Source: the human T2T-CHM13v2.0 reference genome, Homo sapiens
DNA length: 64,000 nt
Assembly: GCF_009914755.1 (NCBI RefSeq)
Contig: NC_060936.1
Reading direction: 5' to 3' (one strand)
The notes under the pieces were generated by a model that saw only the letters and a program-made list of their open reading frames with translations, was not told the origin of the DNA and searched no databases. Shown in pieces: positions 2,755-60,622 of this stretch (within the stretch, counting starts at the first letter, position 1; each line of letters begins with the position of its first letter). The position numbers and the translations under genes were made by a program.

Positions 2755-2900
2755 TTTTTTTTTTTTTTTTTGTATATAAAAATAGAGATGGGGTCTTGCT
2801 ATGTTGCCCAGCCTGGTTTCAAACTCCTGGTCTCAAATGATCCTTCCACCTTGGCCTCCTAAAGTGCTGTGATTACAGGCGTGAGCCACTGTGCCTAGCC
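2755..2900 (-). mobile_element. Alu monomer (FLAM-like)
   Basis: PolyT followed by reverse-complement left arm. Confidence 0.8.
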
Positions 2901-3164
2901 AGACTATAAAATCTTAAAATGGAATCAAAATATCACAATTTTAGATCCATAGTTATTTTACATATTCAGAAGGTAGCGCCCTCTTTGATTTGCCCAAGGT
3001 CACATGGTAGCTGTGGGGAGCTTTATGAGCTAGATTTCCTGATTTGGTGAACTCTTTGATGTAACATTATGGCTGCCCATATGTTGGGATACTTTTTCAG
3101 AGTTTGTTAGTTTCAAATGATAGGTTTTCGAATGTGCAGAGAGAATGACAATAAGTTATAGTAG

Positions 3165-3524
<360 letters not shown>

Positions 3525-3869
3525 TAATTTTCTCTTAAATAGGTATGCCCCCTCACCCCCTGGAAAAAAAAACAACTTTCTTGGATATATTTGTGTTTGT
3601 ATATGTGTTTTCTTCTTCTAACTAGCTTTTAAAAAAACCTTCTATTACTGAGTAATAATAAAAGTATTACTTATAATACCTTTTTAACCTTATATATGGA
3701 CACGGCTTTGGAATGAGCTGTTTAAGCTTCCTCAATGGCTGTAGAATATACTTCATATAGATATATTGCTATAATATTCCAGTAAATGTAGATGGCTAGC
3801 CAGTAGTTTGATGAATTTAACAAGGTGTAGAAAAACATCAAATGACCTTTTCAGTTAAAAAAATGTCTA

Positions 3870-4197
<328 letters not shown>

Positions 4198-5504
4198 TTA
4201 TTAATGACTTTGAGCAGGTCACCATCATTCAGTTTTTTAGTTTATGAGTTGGGATAATAAAGCCTCTCTAATCACCTTCATGGAATTCTATTTAATTAAA
4301 GTACTTCTTTTGGTTCATAGATAAAAGCACTTTATAAATGGTAGTGCCCCATAAGTTCAGTGCCCAGCACTGTCATCCACAAGAGGTATATTTGGAATCA
4401 GTGATGTGACTTTAGAGAAGTAAAGCTTAGTAATAGAAGGTTTTTTAAGAAGAGATGGTTATGCAACTAAGCATGGCAGGGCAAAGCTGATGAAAATGTA
4501 TACCAAGGAAGTAGAATGGAATCAGAGAATTACCTTAACGGCCCTAAGGAAATAATTTTTAAATTTGTGCTTGACAATTCATATCTTATTTACAAAATAA
4601 GGCTTTAAACAGTACTGGGGGAATTATATCTGATCCAGAAAAGACATTTTACTTTCTTCATTTTTATATTGAGCCCATTGGCTGATTGATTTTCAGATAT
4701 GTTTTAGTATAATAGATTCACATCAGTGAATATGGAAAAGAAAGAAACACTAAGGTACCAAGCATTATTGTGGATACTTCCAGATCTATTACCTCCTTCA
4801 ATTCTCACAACTGCTTTGCAAAGTGAGCATTATTAACCCCTATTTTGTAAATGAAGAAACCAAGGCTCATGGTGTCGTAAGTTAGGTGTATAAAGTCATC
4901 TACCTAGCAAGTCATTAAACTGCGATTCAAAGCCAGGTCTGTATATAACTGCAAAGTCCATACCTTGTTTAGTATTGTGTGCAGTTAGATAAAGGAACTA
5001 GTAGTAGGATCAAAAAATGAAATTTAAGTTTAAAAATTTTGTGTAAGGAGTAGGATTTATGTAACTCACTGTACACTGTAATAATAGCATATCTGTACGT
5101 TTCTGTTGTATTAGGAGTTTGCTTTACTGAAATTTAGACATTACTTATTTCATTAAATATGCTTAAAGGCACAAAGTTGAAATCAGTATGATGTCTTTTA
5201 TATTCTAAATATAATTATTATATGAGTTAATTGTCAGTGTCTTTTGCTTTGTTACTTAGATGAATTTCTAGAGTCTTATGTAAATGAAATTAAGAATTAG
5301 ATCTGGTCTATATGTCCCAAAGGAATTGCTACTTAAAGTAATTCCATGTTGAATATTTTTGAAGGAGGAAATAAAGAATGTACCTGTTCTCCATAGAAAT
5401 TTGGAGGCTTATATGATTTTAAATGTAAGTGGAGTGTACTTCTTGGTGTATTTGAAGTTTAAAAGCCCTTGAGAATTGTAACAGAAATGTTCTATTTTTA
5501 TTAG

Positions 5505-53171: not shown

Positions 53172-53366
53172 GTTTACCGACAAGACTGTGAAACTTTCGG
53201 GATGGTGGTGAAAATGCTGATTGAAAAAGATCCTTCATTAGAAAAGTCTATACAGTTTGCATTGAGGCAGAATTTACATGAAATAGGTGAGCGGTGTGTT
53301 GAAGAACTCAAGCATTTCATTGCAGAGTATGATACTTCCACTCAAGATTTTGGAGAGCCTTTTTAG
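53172..53366 (+). CDS. PPHLN1: Periphilin-1 terminal coding exon (C-terminal helical region; 64 aa plus TAG)
   Basis: TTTTACCTTTTAG acceptor, phase 0; VYRQDCETFGMVVKMLIEKDPSLEKSIQFALRQNLHEIGERCVEELKHFIAEYDTSTQDFGEPF*; internal donor TAG|GTGAGC after 53286. Confidence 0.96.
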   Translation, partial: VYRQDCETFGMVVKMLIEKDPSLEKSIQFALRQNLHEIGERCVEELKHFIAEYDTSTQDFGEPF

Positions 53367-53498
53367 ATTTTTCTGCTCAGGCTAAAAAAAAAAAAAAACA
53401 GTTTCTAAAAATTTTTTTTCCTGGATTGTGTAAATCCTTAATATATGGAATTTTTGTGATGCAGAGAAATACTTTATGATAGTTGACAACATTTCAGT

Positions 53499-53793
53499 AT
53501 TAAATAAACATCTAAAATAGTCTGTTTAAAATGTTTGATTCAAATTTTTGTATTTTTTGTAGAGATGGGGTTCACCATGTTGGCCAGGCTAGTCTCTAAC
53601 TCCTGGCCTCAAGTGATCTGCCTGCCTCAGCCTCTCAAAGTGTTGAGATTACAGGCGTGAGCCACCGCTCCCTGCCCAACACATATACCATCTGAAAATG
53701 TTAGAATTCTGAGTTGTGATTTTATTGACTTGTTGCTTGCTTTTTCTTAGGCTTTGTAACTTGTAATATGTTAAAGTGTACTATCCTAATAAA
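53499..53793 (+). terminator. Proximal polyadenylation signals of PPHLN1 flanking an antisense Alu monomer (53543-53678)
   Basis: Overlapping ATTAAA/AATAAA at 53499-53508 and AATAAA at 53788-53793. Confidence 0.6.
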
Positions 53794-54055
53794 CTGAATA
53801 CTTTGGTATCTTAGAGAATATTTGCTTTGAGAGTAATTCTCATTCAATGATAAAATAGAGCACTTAAATCTCTGAGAGATACCTCAGAAAAAAATCCGTT
53901 TTTCCAAGTAATGAACTCAGTGTCTTCTATTACAATAATCCTGAAACTCCTGACTCTCTCACTGATGTATGAGTCTTAAATAATATCATATACAAGACTA
54001 ATAAATAGAAGATGCAGTTTGAGGTGGAAGGTGAGGGATATTTTAAGTTTCGGAC

Positions 54056-54519
54056 TGTAGGAAATCAGTCAGGGTGGTAGGAGAAGCTATAAGGAAAGAC
54101 GCAAACCTTCTTGGAAGGCTGGGAGGTTTTGCAAAGCTTCAGAGAGAATAAAGCTGAAGGCAGCTAATTCTCTTACCCCGAGGCTGAGGGCGAAGAGTAG
54201 GTAACAAGGTAGTGTAAAGAAATTTATCTAGATAAGTTTGTTTACATATGTCCTCCAGAAACCAACCCTTGATCAGTGCAAGACTGCTCCCTGCAAAGGG
54301 GGGCGACAATGTTCATTACTCACAAATTGTGTTGGCTTCAGGCCTTTGGCGTTCTGTCTGTACCGAATAAATACAAGCGGCTCCAGCTTATCAGGACTGC
54401 ACTCTCTTTTGGGCTGCGCTAAAGCCGGCAGTCCCCTAGCCATTCTTACACAAAATACCTGCGTCTGAATACTCCTTTCATCCGGTCGCTCGGCCAGAGT
54501 CTGCAGGACAGACTTGGCA
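54056..54519 (+). promoter_or_regulatory. 5' LTR (LTR22-like)
   Basis: TGTAGGAAATCAGTCAGGG ... GACAGACTTGGCA; about 90% identical to 58560-59013 by hand alignment. Confidence 0.92.
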
Positions 54520-54598
54520 GCAGGTACCCCCTGTGAGGAACACTGAAATGGATCACGACGGAACCCCCGAAAACGAAGGCGAAGAGACTGCGCAGTCA
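54498..54598 (+). CDS. PPHLN1: HERV-derived PPHLN1 alternative exon 1 (U5/PBS/leader)
   Basis: CCAG acceptor in U5; retroviral major donor TCA|GTAAGT; 101 nt, phase 1 to 0; (E)SAGQTWQQVPPVRNTEMDHDGTPENEGEETAQS in frame with the donor at 53286. Confidence 0.8.
54522..54539 (+). other. Primer binding site, tRNA-Met
   Basis: AGGTACCCCCTGTGAGGA matches TGGTGCCCCGTGTGAGGA (complement of elongator tRNA-Met 3' end, recalled) at 15/18. Confidence 0.85.
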
Positions 54599-54662
54599 GT
54601 AAGTCATTGGTGCCCGCTCGGGATTTCCAAGTTCAGGGGAATTCTCAAGCTAGGGTTTCATC

Positions 54663-55410
54663 ATGGGACAACAGCTATCCACACAACAGAAACAGTATAT
54701 AAAAGTATTGAAACAACTGCTTAAAGCTAGCAGAGCCTCGGTTTCGCAGGCTCAATTAAGGGACCCAGTGCAAACTGTTGTTTCCCATAACCCATGGTCC
54801 CCAGAAGAAGGCACGCTGGACCTAGAGCTTTGGGAAAAAGTGGGGAGAAATCTTAAACGATATCATGCACAAGGGCAATGGGTCCCAGTAAAATCTTTAA
54901 CGTTATGGGCCTTAGTTAAGGCTACTTTGGCCTTGCTCTACACAGAAGAGCCTAAGAAGGGAAAGGAGGAGGAACCATCACCTTATCGCCTCCTCTTCCT
55001 CCCTCAGTCCTGCCGTTACCAGATAAAGATACCAAAGAGGAAACGGAGGTTTTCCCTGAGCCCCCTCCCCCAATAAATTGGAAAAAAGACAACAGATACA
55101 CTACAGCTATGGGACCCTGTTTTAGGCAAGCGGCATTAGAAGGGGACCTCTTGGCCTGCCCAGTGATACAAAATTGACAAGGCAATCAAGTATATGAACC
55201 CATTACTTTTTATGCTTATAAAGAGATAAGAAAAAGCATTAGAGAAAATGGAGCTGCTAGTAGCCCATTTACGAAAGGATTAATTAAGGCCATAGCAGAC
55301 AACTTCCATATAACCCTATAGGACTGGTCAGTGCTAGCTAAAACAATTTTAGAGGCCAGTCAGTACCTCCCCTGGAGGACAGAATTTGATGAATTATATA
55401 AACAGCAAAC
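54663..55410 (+). pseudogene. gag: gag remnant (MA to N-terminal CA)
   Basis: MGQQLS myristoylation start, NPWSPEEGTLDLELWEKVG matrix motif, CA start CPV at 55157; frameshifts and stops; truncated by deletion. Confidence 0.9.
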
Positions 55411-58059
55411 CTCTTTCTAGTAGTAGAACACTGGCCTTTAAAGGGAGAGAAATTACAACTGAGCCAGTAAATTAGTTGAGCAATTAAAAGCCGGCCATAT
55501 AGAACCATCAAACAGCCCTTGGAATTTGCCCATTTTCGTCATTCCCAAAAGGTCTGGCAAATGGAGACTTTTGCATGGCTTACAAGCTATCAATGCTAAT
55601 TTGCAATCTATGGGGCCCCTTCAACAGGCTCCCTTCCCCCGCAGCAGTTTCTCAAGATTGGCCTATAGTTGTTACTGACTTAAAAGACTGCTTTTATACT
55701 ATTCCCCTTGCAGAACAGGACAGAGAAAAATTTGCATTTACAATACCAGCTATCAACAATGAAAGGCTAGCTCACCTATTTTATTAGAAAGTACTTTCTC
55801 AAGCAATGCTGAACAGTCCTACCATGTGTCAGTATTATGTAAATCAGGCTTTGCTCCCCAGGAGAAAAGAATATCCTAGTTGCAAGATTATTCATTTTAT
55901 GGATGATATTTTACTAGCAGCTCCAATGGAGCCAGTACTTTTGAGTTTATATGCCTCTGTCATAAGGAATACACAGTTAAGAGGTTTAATCATAGCACCT
56001 GAAAAAGTACAGATGTCCTCACCTTAGAAATATCTTTACATACTAACTTCCTGGTCAATAAGACCTCAAAAGGTTAAATTAAATACTAGCAACTAACATA
56101 CCTTAAATAATTATCAAAAATTGCTAGGCGATATTAACTATCTTTGCCCCACCTTGGGCATAACTACTGATAAATTACAGAACCTGTTTTCTATCCTAAA
56201 AGGCAGTATAGCCCTAGACTCTCCTAGGTATTTAACCCCCACAGCAAAAAGAGAAATTGAGGAAATCAAGCTATTTCTCAGAGGCAACTAGATCGCATAG
56301 ACCCACAATACTCAGTCCAATTGTTTGTTCTTCCTATTAAACATTTCCCCTACAGGATTAATAGGACAGATGGCCCCAGGGCTGCACTTCCTAGAATAGG
56401 TTTTTTGCTCACATACCAGGACTAAAACACTATCTCCCTATATCCAGCTAGTTAGTAAAGTCATCTATACAGACAGCGGATGATGCCATCAGTTGCTAGG
56501 TTATGACCCTGATGTCATAAGAATTCCCTTGAGTAAAAAACAATTTGAAGCAGTCTTGCCCCTATCTCTAGACCTTCAGATAGCACTCTCTGATTATGCA
56601 GGCCATATAAAACATGCCCTTCCTGCTGACAAACTACTTCAGTTCTTATCTAGTACTTCTGTAGTTATTCCTACAAAGGTAGTTTCCTCCCCCATACCTA
56701 ACGCTGTAATGCTTTTTACCGATGGCTCTCGTAAAAATGGAAAAGCGGCTATCTGGTGGAAACCACATAACTCCCTCACTCCATCGAGATTTACTAGTAC
56801 TCAGAGAGCTGAGGTTGGAGCCCTAATATTGGCCCTAGAAACTTTTTCTGTTCAGCCCATCAATATTGTTAGTGACTCTGCTTACTCTGTTTATTTATTG
56901 CAGAACCTTGAAACAGCCCTCATTAAGTCTACTCTCGAGCCGGCCCTGTGTGCCTTTTTTCTTTGACTTCAGTAATTGCTAAATCAATGTACACATTCTA
57001 TTTTTATCACACATATTTGAGCCCACAGCTCACTGCCTGACCCACTGGCTTATGGCAATGATCAAGCAGACCTGCAGGTTATGATGTCACTGCTTAACCA
57101 AGCCACCCAATCACATCAATTTTTCCACCAAAATTAGAGAAACTTAACTAAACAATGTCAACTTACCCAGAGACTAGCTAAACAAATTATCCTGCAATGC
57201 CCAGATTGCCAGCTCACAGGCACGTCCCCTCCTTCAACAGGTGTTAACCCTAGAGGACTAGAACCTAATCAGTTATGGCAAACAGATGTTACACATGTCC
57301 CTGAATTTGGAAAACTAAGATATATACATGTATCCGTTGACACCTATTCTCACCTAATTAGCGCACATGCTCTTCCTGGAAAGTCCACCCCATCTGTCAT
57401 TAAACATCTTTTAACTTTTATGTTTATGGGGCAGCCCACAAAAATTAAAACTTAATAATGGTCCGGCTTATGCCAGCTCACTCAACAATTTTGTCACACT
57501 TGGAGCGTCCAACATTCCACAGGCATCCCGTACAACCCCCAAGGACAGGCCGTAGTAGAACGTGCCCACTTCACCCTTAAAAATATGCTCAGAAAACAAT
57601 GGAGAATATGAGTAAAGACCCTGCAACACTACTAGCACAAGCCTTACTTACCCTTAATTTCTGAAATTTAGATGATAAATTTCAGTCAGCTATAGAAAAG
57701 CACTTTGCTAAAACCTCTCCAGACATAAAACTGCAGTTTTATGGAAAGATGTAAATAGTAATATATGGCATGGTCCAAATGTTTTGCTAACATGGGGAAG
57801 AGGATATGCTTGTGTTCACATCCCCTCAGGCCCTCTTTGGATTCCAGCACGACGCATCAAACCATACCATAGTGGGGCTAGGACCCAACCCAGTACCAGA
57901 AATGAAGGAAACGACCCTGCAGGCCCCGCAGCCCCCGCAGGCCCCGCAGCCCCTGCAGCCCCGGAAGAAACGGGTTCGTCGGACGACACAGCTTCGTCGG
58001 ACGACAGGAGCCCCAGACATTACCTGGGGGATGCTGAAGAAGACAACTCAGGAGGCTGA
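55411..58059 (+). pseudogene. pol: pol remnant (RT, RNase H, integrase)
   Basis: [91 protein letters not shown]; many stops and frameshifts. Confidence 0.95.
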
Positions 58060-58147
58060 GAGGATCCTGCTCCGAACACAGACACCATTCACTCCAGAAA
58101 ATTTGTTCCTTGCTATGCTCTCTGTTGTACATTGCAACTCACGCAAG
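57923..58147 (+). CDS. PPHLN1: HERV-derived PPHLN1 alternative exon 2: env leader/Rec-like domain (alternative in-frame acceptor gives start 57830)
   Basis: CCCTGCAG acceptor and AAG|GTATTG donor; 225 nt, phase 0/0; APQPPQAPQPLQPRKKRVRRTTQLRRTTGAPDITWGMLKKTTQEAERILLRTQTPFTPENLFLAMLSVVHCNSRK. Confidence 0.8.
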
Positions 58148-58559
58148 GTATTGGTCCTTTTTATTCTCTCACTTTGCCTGTTACCCGTACCTACTATACC
58201 CTATTAAGCCCATTTTCTAAATCTGCCTTTTTTCAGCCCTATTCCCTTCCCAGCGTCTAGCAGTGTGACTTTTTAGCTAGGAGGGACTAACATACCCCCA
58301 GTGGGGTTCCTCAGTAACAGCCATATGGAAGGATATGCAAAAAAAAATCTCTCCTAGAAAGACCCCCACTCCTGGGGGTCGCTTCTTAGTTAGAAAAGAA
58401 TATTACTAATTATACTCATGTTTGTCTCTTGTTGTTTACTAATTCTAGGATGTAAAGCCAGAAAACAAGCAGTAACTGCTATGCCTGACAAAACTGTTGC
58501 TGCACACATCTGTACTCGTCAATCAACAAAACCTGATGCAAAAAACAGAAAAGGGGTGA
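58148..58559 (+). pseudogene. env: env remnant: start of SU fused near 58320 to the TM anchor and cytoplasmic tail
   Basis: Signal-peptide hydrophobic stretch, stop at 58205-58207, then hydrophobic ILLIILMFVSCCLLILG running to the PPT. Confidence 0.75.
58449..58475 (+). CDS. PPHLN1: HERV-derived PPHLN1 alternative last coding exon (DVKPENKQ*)
   Basis: TTGTTGTTTACTAATTCTAG acceptor just upstream of the 3' LTR; phase 0; frame differs from env TM. Confidence 0.75.
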   Translation, partial: DVKPENKQ

Positions 58560-59013
58560 TGTAGGAGATGGTCAGGTTGGTAGGAGAAGCTATAAGGAAA
58601 GACGCAATTGGAAGGTCGGGAGGTTTTCCAAAGCTTCAGGAGAGAATAAAGCTGAAGGCAGCTTTATTAATTAATTCTCTTACCCTGAGGCTGAGGGCGA
58701 ACAGTAGGTAGCAAGGGAGTGTAAAGGAATTTATCTAGATAAGTTTGTTTACTTATGCCCTCCGGAAATCATGCAAGACTGCTCCCTGCAAAGGGGGGCG
58801 ACAATGTTCATTACTCACAAATTGTGTTGGCTTCAGGCCTTTGGTATTCTGTCTCTACTGAATAAATACAAATGGTTCCAGCCTATCAGGACTGCACTCT
58901 CTTCTCGGCTGCACTAAAGCTGGCACTCCCCCAGCCGTTCTCATGCAAAATACCTGTGTCAGAATACTCCTTTCATCCATCACTCAGCCAGAGTCTTCAG
59001 GACAGACTCGGCA
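58560..59013 (+). promoter_or_regulatory. 3' LTR (LTR22-like)
   Basis: TGTAGGAGATGGTCAGG ... GACAGACTCGGCA; AATAAA at 58861. Confidence 0.92.
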
Positions 59014-60456
59014 TGGGACTTGTCCAAAAAAATTCTAATCAAAAGAGGAAAATTTTGGAATATGCCAGGAATAGTGGAATTTTATTTTTTAAATTTTTTT
59101 ATAGGCCCATATGCTCTATCTCAAGAAACAAGATGATTGTAACATGTCCATGATTAAACTATTGGCAGATTATTGCTGTGTTAATCTCTGTAGTCTAATG
59201 AGTTCTTTGTTCTGTTCTGCTGCCTTTTACGTTTTCTTGTCCTTTCAAAAGTGTTCTTGAAAGAAACAAAGCGAATAGGCAGTTAGCACAGCACAGCTAC
59301 CCCTTACCAAGCAGTCTATGGAAACAACCCCTCATCCAAATCATGGGTTAGTTAAGAATCTAACTGGGGCAATTAAGATGAATTCCACTCACTTCCTGGT
59401 CACTTCAGCAGCCCAGCGGCATTGAGCCAAAATATACAATTCTGTGTTATTAGTGAGGAAACTTTAAAACTCATGTTTGTTATTACTTACTACCCAATTT
59501 CATTATCCTCCCTTCCTCTTTCCATTTCTATTCTCTCTCACTTGAATTCTGGCATTATTTTTAGTGGCCTCTACTGATAATACCTACCCTAGAGTACATA
59601 AAAATTATATTAAAAGAGGAAGTAGCAGTATGCATAATTTTAACAGATTCTATAATGGGTGCCTCAAAATATGTATTGTGCCATTCCGCAAATTTAAAAG
59701 CTAATTGAGGACAATTTTTTTTTAATTTCCTAAATGAGACCACCTTGGATTTTTATTTTTGCCATTTAGATGTTTATACTTATTTAGCTTTTATAAAACA
59801 TAAGCCAAGCTAAATCCCACATAACAACTCTGGTATTCTTCCCTCATATGAGCAGTGATTTTATTTGTTACCCACCTTAGATAGACTAAGAAAGTTCTAG
59901 TCTTGTTTCTCCTTCTCCCCGCTTCCCTGGGGGTTTTTCCTTACCATAAGTATTCTGGTCCGAGGGTTCAGTTCCTTTAGTCAAGATGTCACAAGTTTAA
60001 AAACAAAACTTGAGAAACTACCAAAGGCTCAGGAGTTGTCCACTTTGTTGAAATCCATTAAATTAGAGAAGTCTCACTAACAGATGTATTTAAATATAGG
60101 TACAACAAATAATTTCTTTTTCTCCCCTTCCCCAAATTACAGTCAGCATTTAAAGCTGTTTATGGCTTGCCATCAGCATTATTCTGGTAGGCTTGTTAGT
60201 GTTAAAATCTATTTGATTTTTTTTTTTTTTTTTTGCCTCTTAAAGTCTAATTTTAGGATGGATGAATTCAGATGTTTACCAGAGTGTGTATTTTACATAA
60301 TGTTCTTGATTAAAAAGACTTGTTTGTAAATTATCCGTTGTTTTTGCATATGCCCAGTTGATGTGATAAAATTTTCATTGTCTTGCCATATAAAGCCTTG
60401 GTTATCAACAGGTGGAATGTAGATATTGTAAAGCTTTTTGTGAATTAAAAGTGCAA

Positions 60457-60462
60457 AATAAA
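60457..60462 (+). terminator. Candidate distal polyadenylation signal
   Basis: AATAAA at the end of an AU-rich repeat-poor stretch, followed by T-rich sequence. Confidence 0.5.
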
Positions 60463-60622
60463 GCAACCACATTTAAGTAGATTGTCTTTTCTCTTATTTT
60501 AACAGGGTTAACGTATTTTGCTAAAATGTGGGCTTTATTACTCTGTACTGCAAGATTACTTCTTAGTCTTCAGTTCACCTACTCAGCAGCAGGATAGAGG
60601 AAGTGTGAGAATTGAAAAACTA

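What the first reader, a model, noticed from the sequence alone, without database searches (positions are those of the whole stretch)
53172..58475. Periphilin fused in frame to a Rec-like retroviral module through the provirus's own splice sites
Seen: four joins keep one open frame, 53172-53286 (GTGAGC donor) to 54498-54598 (GTAAGT) to 57923-58147 (GTATTG) to 58449-58475 (TAA), adding 34+75+8 = 117 HERV-derived residues. The middle exon has an Arg-rich stretch (RKKRVRRTTQLRR) followed by PDITWGMLKKTTQEAERILLRTQTPFTPENLFLAMLSVV. By eye this aligns with HML-2 Rec as I recall it ([39 protein letters not shown]). The last exon reads the env tail in a different frame, as in rec. Established: Rec/Rem/Rej are env-leader-derived RNA export adaptors with an Arg-rich NLS/RNA-binding motif and a CRM1 NES, and periphilin is the RNA-binding HUSH subunit. 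Inference: this is a primate chimera joining a retroelement silencer to a retroviral RNA-export module. I recall HERV-M-derived periphilin exons and a long annotated isoform with this tail, so the exons are probably known; a Rec-type function would be the new part.
Basis: partly seen in the sequence, partly recalled or inferred. Interest (0 to 1): 0.9.

Follow-up and report, generated by a model that had tools for sequence, protein, structure and literature searches.

The report
Periphilin tail from retroviral Rec homolog
An ancient retrovirus lying just past the end of the periphilin gene supplies, largely through its own splice sites, an alternative protein tail related to the viral Rec export factor; this tail has stayed almost unchanged in apes and Old World monkeys, and it replaces the part of periphilin that docks it into the HUSH silencing complex.

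Summary
The four joins keep one frame and add 117 residues, and all the exons are annotated. The donor element is a 4,958-bp, internally deleted HML-5/HERV-M provirus (54056-59013) that starts 18 nt past the ancestral poly(A) site.

The 75-aa exon is the N-extension of the Env signal peptide. It matches Pfam HERV-K_REC (E 2e-5, 25.0 bits, below the 27.5 cut-off) and a natural HML-2 Env (17 of 36 identical, E 1e-7). The last acceptor sits at the same place as the HML-2 rec acceptor.

Two Rec hallmarks fail as inherited features:
- Both leucines in the HML-2 NES stretch are replaced.
- The Arg-rich motif comes from a 45-nt expansion absent from 39 of 39 other copies and from marmoset and owl-monkey orthologues. 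It is present with 9 of 9 basic residues invariant in 15 of 15 catarrhines.

Across catarrhines the tail shows 8 replacements against about 45 expected under neutrality. The alternative donor also removes periphilin residues 349-374, including L356, which TASOR binding requires.

My reading is a selected, HUSH-uncoupled periphilin isoform carrying a domesticated Rec-homologous module. CRM1-type export is unproven and less likely.

The parts
53172..53286 (+). Retained part of the ancestral last coding exon of PPHLN1. It encodes periphilin V311-I348 in isoform-2 numbering and keeps the dimer-interface residues L326, L333 and I337. It ends at the internal donor AG|gtgagc.
   Evidence: for the joins. 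Periphilin_C PF25234, E 1.7e-34, profile positions 29-83. PDB 6swg chain position 38 equals exon residue 1. Searches give the residue numbering and the interface residues.
53287..53366 (+). Canonical C-terminus, G349-F374 plus the stop codon, spliced out in the HERV-tailed isoforms. It contains L356 and almost exactly matches the d350-374 segment that TASOR binding needs.
   Evidence: for the sequence. PMC7544229 passages: d350-374 and L356R lose TASOR binding and silencing.
54002..54038 (+). Ancestral poly(A) signal AATAAA (54002-54007) and the annotated end of the selected transcript (54038). This is 18 nt before the provirus.
   Evidence: for the sequence; hub gene table for the exon 53172-54038.
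54056..54519 (+). 5' LTR, 464 nt, running TG...CA.
   Evidence: 90-91% identical to the 3' LTR. The flanking 6-mers TCGGAC and TGGGAC match at 5 of 6 positions.
54498..54598 (+). Exon made of the last 22 nt of U5, the decayed primer-binding site (54522-54539) and the viral leader. It encodes 33 full codons plus two bases of the split first codon. This stretch is non-coding in the virus.
   Evidence: The acceptor AG is present in 25 of 29 other copies. The same frame is open in 13 of 29.
54599..54604 (+). Viral major 5' splice site GTAAGT, about 80 nt after the LTR end.
   Evidence: GT in 25 of 29 other copies; TCA|GTAAGT in 17 of 30 copies.
54654..57611 (+). Decayed and deleted gag-pol: Gag p10 fragment, RT, RT thumb, RNase H, integrase.
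   Evidence: for the ORFs. Gag_p10 E 1.4e-20, RVT_1 E 9e-12, RVT_thumb E 1.3e-20, RNase_H E 3.6e-11, rve E 1.2e-10.
57830..57922 (+). In-frame upstream extension used by other transcripts, with acceptors at 57830 and 57848. It contains the env ATG at 57902-57904. The acceptor at 57830 is the likely viral env acceptor.
   Evidence: the frame is open from 57791 to 58207. AG present in 33 of 39 (57830) and 37 of 39 (57848) other copies; ATG in 35 of 39. Searches show proteins that begin the tail with these extensions.
57923..58147 (+). 75-aa exon encoding the Env signal-peptide N-extension, the homologue of Rec exon 1. It ends at the rec-type donor AAG|gtattg.
   Evidence: HERV-K_REC E 2.1e-5, 25.0 bits against a cut-off of 27.5; 17 of 36 identical to a natural HML-2 Env, E 1e-7; 40% identity over 67 aa to a betaretrovirus-like contig; donor GT in 26 of 39 other copies; AAG|GT in 0 of 39.
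57935..57979 (+). 45-nt expansion specific to this locus, made of tandem copies of adjacent sequence. It creates the Pro-rich repeat and, together with the following bases, the Arg-rich motif encoded at 57962-58000.
   Evidence: absent from 39 of 39 other copies; unique in the genome; present in 15 of 15 catarrhine orthologues and absent from 2 of 2 New World monkey orthologues.
58148..58448 (+). The rec-type intron. It holds 170 nt of env 5' sequence and 132 nt of env 3' sequence around a 1,305-nt env deletion, with the junction near 58316/58317.
   Evidence: by comparison with a full-env copy; 8 other loci share the short spacing.
58449..58475 (+). Last coding piece, 8 codons plus TAA. It reads the TM membrane-anchor region in a frame different from env. 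The annotated gene runs on to 60479.
   Evidence: acceptor AG in 26 of 29 other copies; the HML-2 rec exon 2 starts at the homologous CTAG|, one codon before the conserved Cys.
58560..59013 (+). 3' LTR, preceded by the polypurine tract at 58540-58559. It lies in the 3' UTR of the tailed transcripts.
60458..60463 (+). Distal poly(A) signal AATAAA used by the tailed transcripts.
   Evidence: the hub table gives exon ends at 60476 and the gene end at 60479.

Best explanation
**What it is (shown).** An HML-5/HERV-M provirus integrated in sense orientation 18 nt past the ancestral PPHLN1 poly(A) site, before New World and Old World anthropoids split. The provirus was already deleted in gag-pro and env. 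When the ancestral poly(A) site is bypassed, splicing proceeds in this order:
1. A donor inside the last coding exon (53286) joins an AG in U5 (54498).
2. The viral major donor (54598) joins the env acceptor region (57830, 57848 or 57923).
3. A donor inside the Env signal peptide (58147) joins an acceptor at the TM anchor (58449).

The last two steps are the provirus's own rec-type splice. The final 83 residues are therefore the provirus's Rec-homologous reading frame, fused to periphilin.

**Later changes (shown).** In the catarrhine stem a 45-nt tandem expansion and further substitutions turned a weakly basic stretch into RKKRVRR.TQ.RR. Since then the tail has evolved 5 to 10 times more slowly than the neighbouring untranslated-when-spliced segment.

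**How it most likely works (inferred).**
- The splice deletes periphilin residues 349-374, including L356. Deleting or mutating these abolishes TASOR binding and silencing in published work.
- The splice keeps the RNA-binding N-terminal domain and the dimer interface.
- The isoform should therefore bind RNA, and possibly pair with canonical periphilin, without recruiting HUSH.
- The Rec-derived basic and helical module would then act as a nuclear/nucleolar-targeting, RNA-binding or partner-binding end, rather than as a CRM1 export signal.
For: - **Joins and frame:**
- **Provirus anatomy:**
- **Family identity:** the primer-binding site in other copies matches a tRNA-Met(CAT) gene. PMC3778440 passages equate HML-5 with HERV-M.
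- **Rec homology:**
- **Conserved proviral splice sites:**. One search shows the acceptor is homologous to the HML-2 rec acceptor.
- **Origin of the Arg-rich motif:** absent from 39 of 39 paralogues, unique in the genome, absent from marmoset and owl monkey, and present in 15 of 15 catarrhines with 9 of 9 basic residues invariant.
- **Constraint, by my parsimony count on the table (statistics):**
  - 47-aa core: 2 replacements against 20.6 expected (P 2.6e-7; P 0.034 if the neutral rate is three times lower).
  - The core's rate is 0.10 of the read-through segment's rate (binomial P 0.009).
  - The read-through segment fits neutrality (4 observed, 4.2 expected).
  - Pooled tail: 8 against 45.2.
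- **Loss of the TASOR interface:**, plus PMC7544229 passages and PMC11754731 passages. The latter reports that C-terminal deletions unable to bind TASOR bind more RNA but do not silence.
Against: - No experiment on the tailed isoform was found. Loss of TASOR binding is inferred from deletion and point mutants of isoform 2. The new tail could in principle supply another contact.
- Constraint was measured on predicted protein models only. Without orthologous DNA I could not compare synonymous with non-synonymous change, so constraint could lie at the RNA level.
- The U5/leader exon, which never coded in the virus, is also slow (3 replacements in 34 codons). That would fit an RNA-level reading as well.
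- The branch times and neutral rate are recalled approximations.
- Comparison with paralogues gave no signal: pN/pS 0.52 for this copy against 0.60 among the others, rank 12 of 38.
- The isoform that restores HUSH function in knock-out cells is isoform 2, so the tail is not needed for silencing.
- Periphilin is already nuclear, so an extra nuclear-localisation signal is not obviously required.
Confidence: 0.5

Rival explanations
1. The tail is a working Rec-type adaptor. The Arg-rich motif would bind a structured retroviral RNA element, and a leucine-rich or hydrophobic signal would recruit CRM1. Periphilin would then become an RNA export or shuttling factor for retroelement transcripts.
For: - Homology to Rec exon 1 and to a betaretroviral Env leader.
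- A rec-type splice architecture.
- An Arg-rich motif N-terminal to the conserved Trp motif, as in HML-2 and in the contig L108.
- Conservation of the core in catarrhines.
- The tailed mRNA carries the whole 3' LTR in its 3' UTR.
Against: - The two leucines inside the published HML-2 NES stretch (aa 54-60, KKLTQLA in a natural copy) read KKTTQEA here. The same or near-identical reading, with no Leu at either position, is seen in the family copies whose frame can be read there.
- The Arg-rich motif is not inherited from the virus.
- The Pfam score is below the gathering cut-off.
- The 3' LTR folds no better than shuffles (z -1.41; a weak test on one decayed copy).
- No Rec-type protein or responsive element is described for HML-5 in the papers I could search.
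Confidence: 0.12
2. The constraint is on the RNA, not the protein. The proviral exons would serve as a regulated alternative 3' end that diverts transcripts away from the HUSH-competent isoform as a dosage control. The sequence of the encoded tail would be incidental.
For: - The U5/leader exon and the optional upstream extension also change slowly: 3 of 34 and 4 of 25.
- The donor at 58147 reads AAG|GT in this copy and in 0 of 39 others. By my recalled knowledge of 5' splice-site consensus, that is the stronger form.
- All 17 orthologues have Lys at that codon.
- No synonymous-site data were available.
Against: - The 19 codons immediately after the donor, in the same provirus, evolve at the neutral rate.
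- All 9 basic residues of the Arg-rich motif are invariant in 15 of 15 catarrhines, while the neighbouring Pro-rich repeat varies freely in length and sequence.
- The stop codon lies in the last exon, so the transcripts are not obvious decay targets.
Confidence: 0.2
3. The tailed isoforms are tolerated by-products of a provirus next to a poly(A) site and have no selected function.
For: - About 1 family copy in 8 would give an open tail by chance.
- The selected RefSeq transcript and the functionally studied isoform both use the ancestral end (hub table).
- Ueda 2020 passages report low expression of the PPHLN1 ERV-ORF in one data set.
- The paralogue comparison shows no signal.
Against: - The frame is open in all 17 anthropoid species retrieved.
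- There are 8 replacements against about 45 expected in catarrhines.
- The Arg-rich motif has been invariant since the catarrhine stem.
Confidence: 0.12

Closest known systems
HERV-K(HML-2) Rec (formerly cORF/K-Rev)
   Same: - It is made from the Env signal-peptide N-extension.
- Its donor lies inside the hydrophobic part of the signal peptide, in env phase 0.
- Its acceptor lies at CTAG|, one codon before the Cys that follows the TM membrane span, so exon 2 is read in another frame.
- The shared motif is TW..LKK.TQ.A...L..T...TPE..LA.L.V, 17 of 36 identical.
- It has an Arg-rich stretch N-terminal to the Trp.
   Different: - Exon 2 encodes 8 aa here rather than 18.
- The two Leu inside the NES stretch (aa 54-60) are T and E here.
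- The Arg-rich motif arose in the host lineage.
- The Pfam score is 25.0, below the 27.5 cut-off.
- The module is not free-standing. It is the C-terminus of a host protein, preceded by 33 residues from U5 and the viral leader.
MMTV Rem / signal peptide and JSRV Rej (Env signal-peptide export factors)
   Same: They are betaretroviral regulators that reside in a long Env signal peptide (PMC5568270 and PMC8725593, abstract and passages). The env leader of the betaretrovirus-like contig L108 aligns at 40% identity over 67 aa and carries RRRKR nine residues before the Trp.
   Different: I did not compare MMTV or JSRV sequences themselves. Any closer resemblance to Rem is recalled, not tested. In those viruses the functional unit is the cleaved signal peptide; here there is no signal-peptide context.
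Putative Rec domain of HML-10 type II proviruses (Grandi 2017, PMC5667498)
   Same: A Rec-like env-leader domain detected by profile outside HML-2. The authors say Rec had been thought exclusive to HML-2 (passages).
   Different: Those are proviral ORFs without a host fusion. They are reported to lack the NLS but to keep a recognisable NES, the reverse of what is seen here.
Periphilin isoform 2 (374 aa), the HUSH subunit in PDB 6SWG
   Same: Identical up to I348 in this window's exon, including the dimer interface L326/L333/I337.
   Different: The tailed isoforms lack 349-374, including L356. These are the residues whose deletion or mutation abolishes TASOR binding and silencing.
HERV-M exonisation in PPHLN1 (Huh et al. 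2006, J Mol Evol)
   Same: It concerns the same locus and the same kind of event, and is cited as such in PMC6379475, PMC7544229 and PMC3123540.
   Different: I could not read the paper. [quoted passage not shown] None of the passages I saw mentions Rec homology, the host-lineage Arg-rich motif, the loss of the TASOR interface or the constraint.

Membership tests
Rec/Rem/Rej-type betaretroviral Env-leader regulators | Encoded by the N-extension of the Env signal peptide | tested here: met
   The env ATG at 57902 is in frame with the exon. The exon is homologous to a natural HML-2 Env N-terminus and to the env leader of L108.
Rec/Rem/Rej-type betaretroviral Env-leader regulators | Significant match to the curated Rec profile (Pfam PF15695, which covers HML-2 Env aa 19-105) | tested here: inconclusive
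   E 2.1e-5 and the only hit, but 25.0 bits is below the gathering score of 27.5. The profile register was checked on a natural copy.
Rec/Rem/Rej-type betaretroviral Env-leader regulators | Second splice inside env, from the signal peptide to the TM anchor, with exon 2 in another frame (Rec-specific) | tested here: met
   Donor 58147/8 and acceptor 58448/9. The frames differ. The HML-2 acceptor is at the homologous CTAG|. Across other copies the donor GT is present in 26 of 39 and the acceptor AG in 26 of 29. Whether the virus itself used this splice is inferred.
Rec/Rem/Rej-type betaretroviral Env-leader regulators | Arg-rich NLS / RNA-binding motif | tested here: inconclusive
   The motif RKKRVRRTTQLRR is present, but not by descent. 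It is absent from 39 of 39 paralogues and 2 of 2 New World monkey orthologues. Its function was not tested.
Rec/Rem/Rej-type betaretroviral Env-leader regulators | Leucine-rich NES at the position mapped in HML-2 Rec (aa 54-60) | tested here: not met
   KKLTQLA in the natural HML-2 copy aligns with KKTTQEA here. The NES position comes from PMC2649029 passages. No family copy whose frame can be read there has a Leu at either position.
Rec/Rem/Rej-type betaretroviral Env-leader regulators | Binds a responsive element in the viral RNA and exports intron-retaining RNA through CRM1 | not testable with these tools
   The only test was a fold of the 3' LTR, which gave z -1.41 and is uninformative.
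HUSH-competent periphilin | Complete Periphilin_C hairpin, with residues 350-374 and L356 that contact TASOR | tested here: not met
   The donor at 53286 keeps residues up to I348 only. The requirement comes from PMC7544229 passages.
HUSH-competent periphilin | Dimer interface L326, L333, I337 and the RNA-binding N-terminal domain | tested here: met
   The interface residues are within 53172-53286. The N-terminal domain lies outside the window but is present in the tailed isoforms retrieved.
HERV-K(HML-5)/HERV-M provirus | Primer-binding site complementary to tRNA-Met | tested here: met
   This holds for the family. A 15-mer from other copies is an exact match to the 3' end of a tRNA-Met(CAT) gene. 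This copy's site (54522-54539) is decayed. The naming comes from PMC3778440 passages.
HERV-K(HML-5)/HERV-M provirus | Paired LTRs with a target-site duplication, and betaretroviral gag/pol domains | tested here: met
   I made no comparison with a named HML-5 reference sequence.

The most novel reading that the evidence does not exclude
HML-5 viruses made a Rec-type protein. Anthropoid primates then domesticated one copy as the C-terminus of the HUSH RNA-binding subunit. In catarrhines the host rebuilt its Arg-rich motif. The resulting periphilin-Rec fusion cannot dock on TASOR and would act as a natural modulator or antagonist of HUSH. It could do this by competing for retroelement RNA, by poisoning periphilin dimers, or by moving bound transcripts to the nucleolus or cytoplasm. 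In short, a retroviral accessory module would have been turned into a built-in brake or re-router on the retroelement silencer.
Probability: 0.15. Interest if true: 0.9.

Novelty: new variant of a known kind. Interest (0 to 1): 0.68.

Why it matters
Periphilin is the subunit that lets HUSH recognise retroelement RNA. All mechanistic work I could read used isoform 2 and set the longer isoform aside.

This analysis adds four points about the longer isoforms:
- They end in a homologue of a retroviral RNA-export factor.
- The tail has been conserved for roughly 30 million years or more.
- It gained a basic motif in the host lineage.
- It lacks the residues needed to join HUSH.

Together these give a concrete, testable idea: primates may carry a selected, HUSH-uncoupled periphilin whose tail came from the class of element HUSH silences.

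The data also suggest that rec-type splicing predates HML-2 within the HERV-K supergroup. The passages I read describe Rec as known for HML-2, with only a putative domain reported in HML-10.

Tried and rejected
- **Paralogue pN/pS over 50 codons:** this copy 0.52 against 0.60 among the others, rank 12 of 38. No signal. The test has low power because half of each path is a decaying copy.
- **RNA fold of the 3' LTR as a stand-in for a responsive element:** z -1.41, with 6 of 100 shuffles folding at least as well. Uninformative.
- **Sequence search of the env leader against solved structures:** only chance-level hits, best E 0.33 (TRPM2 chanzyme).
- **Pfam on the U5/leader frame and on the TM-tail frame:** no families.
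- **Structure prediction of the leader from alignment A2:** the tool accepted no jobs, so I report no fold or fold search.
- **Primary papers:** Lavie 2004 on HML-5 and Huh 2006 on this locus could not be read. If either describes a rec-like ORF in HML-5, or the primate distribution of the tail, my novelty claim shrinks.
- **[quoted passage not shown]:** considered and rejected. It is built from tandem copies of adjacent sequence, is absent from 39 of 39 paralogues, and is absent from the two New World monkey orthologues.
- **"The open frame proves function":** considered and rejected.
- **Complex prediction:** not sent.

Full report
**1.

One search recomputed the four intervals from the window.
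- 53172-53286 is followed by gtgagc.
- 54498-54598 is preceded by cag and followed by gtaagt.
- 57923-58147 is preceded by cag and followed by gtattg.
- 58449-58475 is preceded by tag and ends in TAA.

Exon phases are 0, 1, 0, 0. The joined frame has 155 codons and no internal stop. The tail is 34+75+8 = 117 residues, the first from a split codon. The hub table lists these exons among RefSeq transcripts. One search returned periphilin isoforms with this tail, including entries named as human isoforms 12, 16 and 18. So the chimera is real and already annotated.

**2. The donor element.**

- Searches show two LTRs, at 54056-54519 and 58560-59013, that are 90-91% identical.
- The flanking 6-mers, TCGGAC and TGGGAC, match at 5 of 6 positions.
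- A polypurine tract lies just before the 3' LTR.
- Between the LTRs lie a Gag p10 fragment, RT, RT thumb, RNase H and integrase pieces, then an env leader and an env TM anchor and tail.
- Compared with a full-env copy, 1,305 nt of env are missing, with the junction near 58316/58317.

The human assembly holds many relatives: 93, 111 and 124 first-look candidates for three probes, 40 scored each time.

In other copies the sequence just after the LTR is a primer-binding site. A 15-mer from it is an exact match to the 3' end of a tRNA-Met(CAT) gene. This copy's site is decayed. PMC3778440 (passages) says HML-5 could be called HERV-M for that reason. It gives about 139 proviruses and an age of about 55 My. 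PMC6379475 (passages) states that periphilin has undergone a HERV-M insertion.

The provirus starts 18 nt after the annotated end (54038) of the selected transcript. That transcript's AATAAA is at 54002-54007. The tailed transcripts end after an AATAAA at 60458-60463.

**3. Whose splice sites are they?**

| Site | In this copy | In other family copies |
|---|---|---|
| Donor 54598/9 | TCA\|GTAAGT, ~80 nt past the LTR | GT in 25 of 29; exact 9-mer in 17 of 30 (this copy counted) |
| Acceptor 57830 | long pyrimidine run before it | AG in 33 of 39 |
| Acceptor 57848 | | AG in 37 of 39 |
| Acceptor 57923 | 21 nt after the env ATG | AG in 33 of 39 |
| Donor 58147/8 | AAG\|GT | GT in 26 of 39; AAG\|GT in 0 of 39 |
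| Acceptor 58448/9 | after TTTACTAATTCTAG | AG in 26 of 29 |

- The position and conservation of the donor at 54598/9 fit the viral major 5' splice site.
- The acceptor at 57830 is the likely env acceptor. All three acceptors in that region stay in the open frame 57791-58207. Proteins using each of them were retrieved.
- The acceptor at 54498 lies in U5 and cannot have been a viral acceptor. Its AG is simply common in the family (25 of 29).
- The donor at 53286 is internal to the ancestral last coding exon.

**4. Homology to Rec.**

- The 75-aa exon gives one Pfam hit, HERV-K_REC: E 2.1e-5, 25.0 bits against a cut-off of 27.5, with exon residues 24-70 on profile positions 21-67.
- I located natural HML-2 copies with the same profile. 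This showed that the profile equals Env residues 19-105.
- A 7,470-nt betaretrovirus-like contig from IMG/VR with intact pol and env aligns better: 40% over 67 residues, E 3e-10.

PMC2649029 (passages) gives the reference features for HML-2:
- Rec exon 1 is aa 1-87, shared with the signal peptide.
- Exon 2 is aa 88-105, in another frame.
- The NLS is aa 13-20 and the NES is aa 54-60.

In a natural HML-2 copy, the 18-codon second exon starts right after CTAG, one codon before the Cys that follows the membrane span. Here the acceptor is also CTAG|, one codon before the corresponding Cys. Both donors are in env phase 0 inside the hydrophobic part of the signal peptide. By ungapped extrapolation of the alignment, they lie within about three codons of each other.

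The architecture is therefore rec-type. Most family copies would read 8 codons and then a stop in the second exon. That the virus itself used this splice is an inference.

**5. Two Rec hallmarks are not inherited.**

*The NES.* The HML-2 stretch at aa 54-60 reads KKLTQLA in the natural copy. It aligns with KKTTQEA here. No family copy whose frame can be read there has a Leu at either position.

*The Arg-rich motif.*
- The alignment of this copy with 39 others shows a 45-nt segment (57935-57979) in this copy only.
- A probe across it finds only this locus in the genome.
- It is built from tandem copies of neighbouring sequence, including an 18-nt unit that matches the next 18 nt at 14 positions.
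- Natural copies read, for example, RTTRLPRMTQ before the Trp motif (L006).

**6. Orthologues date the motif and show constraint.**

A search for longer proteins returned 109 hits. Periphilin isoforms with this tail came from:
- Homo, two Pan species, Pongo and Symphalangus;
- two Rhinopithecus species, Trachypithecus and Piliocolobus;
- Papio, Cercocebus, three Macaca species and Chlorocebus (these catarrhines at 91-100% identity);
- Callithrix and Aotus (69%).

I read 20 of the 109 and tabulated 17 species.

- All 15 catarrhines carry RKKRVRR[T/M]TQ[L/F]RRTT, with 9 of 9 basic residues invariant.
- Both New World monkeys read NLQSQRLRLRRTA, without the expansion.
- The expansion therefore arose in the host lineage, after integration, between the platyrrhine split and the ape/Old World monkey split.
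- All 17 species have Lys at the last codon before the donor, where other copies have Arg. This fits the AAG|GT reading seen only in this copy. From recalled splice-site consensus, A at position -2 is the favoured base.

Replacements counted by parsimony on the table, within catarrhines:

| Segment | Replacements / codons |
|---|---|
| U5/leader exon | 3 of 34 |
| Upstream extension | 4 of 25 |
| Arg-rich motif | 2 of 15 |
| 47-aa core | 2 of 47 |
| Last exon | 1 of 8 |
| 19 read-through codons after the donor (4 taxa) | 4 of 19 |

The Pro-rich repeat varies in sequence and length.

One search used recalled branch times (175 My in all) and a recalled neutral rate (1.1e-9 per site per year).
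- The read-through segment fits neutrality: 4 observed, 4.2 expected.
- The core does not: 2 observed against 20.6 expected, P 2.6e-7. At one third of the rate, P is 0.034.
- Against the read-through segment, the core's rate ratio is 0.10 (binomial P 0.009).

Caveats:
- The sequences are predicted models.
- There are no synonymous-site data.
- The dates are approximate.
- Species with a broken frame would not appear in the search.

Between human and marmoset the core differs at 8 of 47 positions. That is near what neutrality on the non-catarrhine branches would give, so the strong constraint is shown for catarrhines only.

**7. What the splice removes.**

- The exon that starts at 53172 matches Periphilin_C (E 1.7e-34).
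- It also matches the periphilin chain of PDB 6swg from chain position 38. This sets 53172 at V311 of the 374-aa isoform 2.
- The internal donor keeps residues up to I348.

PMC7544229 (passages) reports:
- d350-374 neither binds TASOR nor rescues silencing.
- L356R fails to rescue silencing and H3K9me3.
- L326, L333 and I337 form the dimer interface.
- Isoform 1 numbering is seven lower. That makes 341+117 = 458, which matches my recollection of the isoform 1 length.

PMC11754731 (passages) adds that the N-terminal domain binds RNA. It also reports that C-terminal deletions unable to bind TASOR bind more RNA but do not silence.

The tailed isoforms keep the dimer residues and, as searches show, the N-terminal domain. 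They lose L356 and the rest of 349-374. Loss of HUSH assembly is therefore a strong inference, though nobody has shown it for this isoform in the papers I could search (listing only).

**8. Most likely mechanism and its rivals.**

I commit to the following. This is a selected alternative C-terminus that uncouples periphilin from TASOR. It adds a domesticated Rec-homologous module whose basic motif the host lineage rebuilt. The module more probably serves nuclear or nucleolar targeting, RNA binding or partner binding than CRM1 export. Confidence is 0.5.

| Rival | Confidence |
|---|---|
| True Rec-type export adaptor | 0.12 |
| Constraint at the RNA level, with the alternative end acting as a dosage valve for HUSH-competent periphilin | 0.20 |
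| Tolerated by-product | 0.12 |

**9. What is in print.**

| Search terms | Papers |
|---|---|
| periphilin + HERV-M | 3 |
| PPHLN1 + HML-5 | 0 |
| PPHLN1 with LTR22 or HERVK22 names | none holds PPHLN1 |
| HML-5 + Rec + splice + env | 10 (listing only, plus passages of one) |
| periphilin + isoform 1 + TASOR | 7 (listing) |
| PPHLN1 + HERV + exon + env | 14 (passages of three) |

- The exonisation itself is known. Ueda 2020 (passages) notes ERV-ORF overlap with PPHLN1 exons.
- Grandi 2017 (passages) reports a putative Rec domain in HML-10 and says Rec had been considered exclusive to HML-2.
- I found no statement of Rec homology of the periphilin tail, of rec-type splicing in HML-5, of the host-lineage Arg-rich motif, of the lost TASOR interface, or of constraint on the tail.
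- Huh 2006 and Lavie 2004 could not be read, and supplements were not consulted.

**10. Verdict.**

The object is a known, annotated isoform family. The Rec homology and architecture are confirmed. Rec-type function is unproven, and one defining feature (the NES) fails.

Four points raise the finding above an ordinary exonisation:
- the tail has a retroviral accessory-gene origin;
- it is conserved in catarrhines;
- it gained a basic motif in the host lineage;
- it replaces the HUSH docking helix.

Noticed in passing
window 58148-58448; other loci on C12, C6, C13, C20, C8, C23 and C5 (coordinates): Among 19 loci where both probes hit, this locus and 8 others have about 207-245 nt between the env leader and the TM anchor. 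The other 10 have 1.5-2.5 kb. This points to a shared env-deleted subfamily that keeps both rec-type splice sites. Several of these loci also share about 3.2-3.4 kb between the 5' leader and the env leader, so a roughly 5-kb deleted form seems to have multiplied.
   Followed up: partly
L108 (IMG/VR contig, 7,470 nt), env at 2815-4878: A betaretrovirus-like contig with long open pol and env frames. Its env leader is the closest non-human relative of the tail that I found. It carries RRRKR nine residues before the conserved Trp.
   Followed up: partly
window 58148-58207: Transcripts that do not use the donor at 58147 (exons 57830-60476 and 57848-60476 in the hub table) would end in 19 further, mostly hydrophobic residues. 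This gives a long hydrophobic C-terminus like an uncleaved signal-peptide core. Such models are annotated in Rhinopithecus, Papio and Chlorocebus. This segment evolves at the neutral rate.
   Followed up: partly
whole genome: The HERV-K_REC profile finds 371 candidates, of which 150 were scored and all listed ones pass the cut-off. Beyond the HML-2 copies, dozens of loci score 30-55 bits on profile positions of about 21-87. Many of these have open frames of 114 aa. Rec-like env leaders therefore seem widespread among HERV-K groups.
   Followed up: no
window 54002-54056: The provirus integrated 18 nt past the annotated poly(A) cleavage site of the ancestral last exon. The 5' LTR's own AATAAA (54367-54372) lies in the intron that the tailed transcripts remove.
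   Followed up: partly
proteins P0084-P0109: About twenty unnamed short proteins from small contigs of various archives are 64-87% identical to the exon. Three of them carry the Rec Pfam label. They are probably primate-derived family copies.
   Followed up: no
I did not work out what transcript model this belongs to.
   Followed up: no
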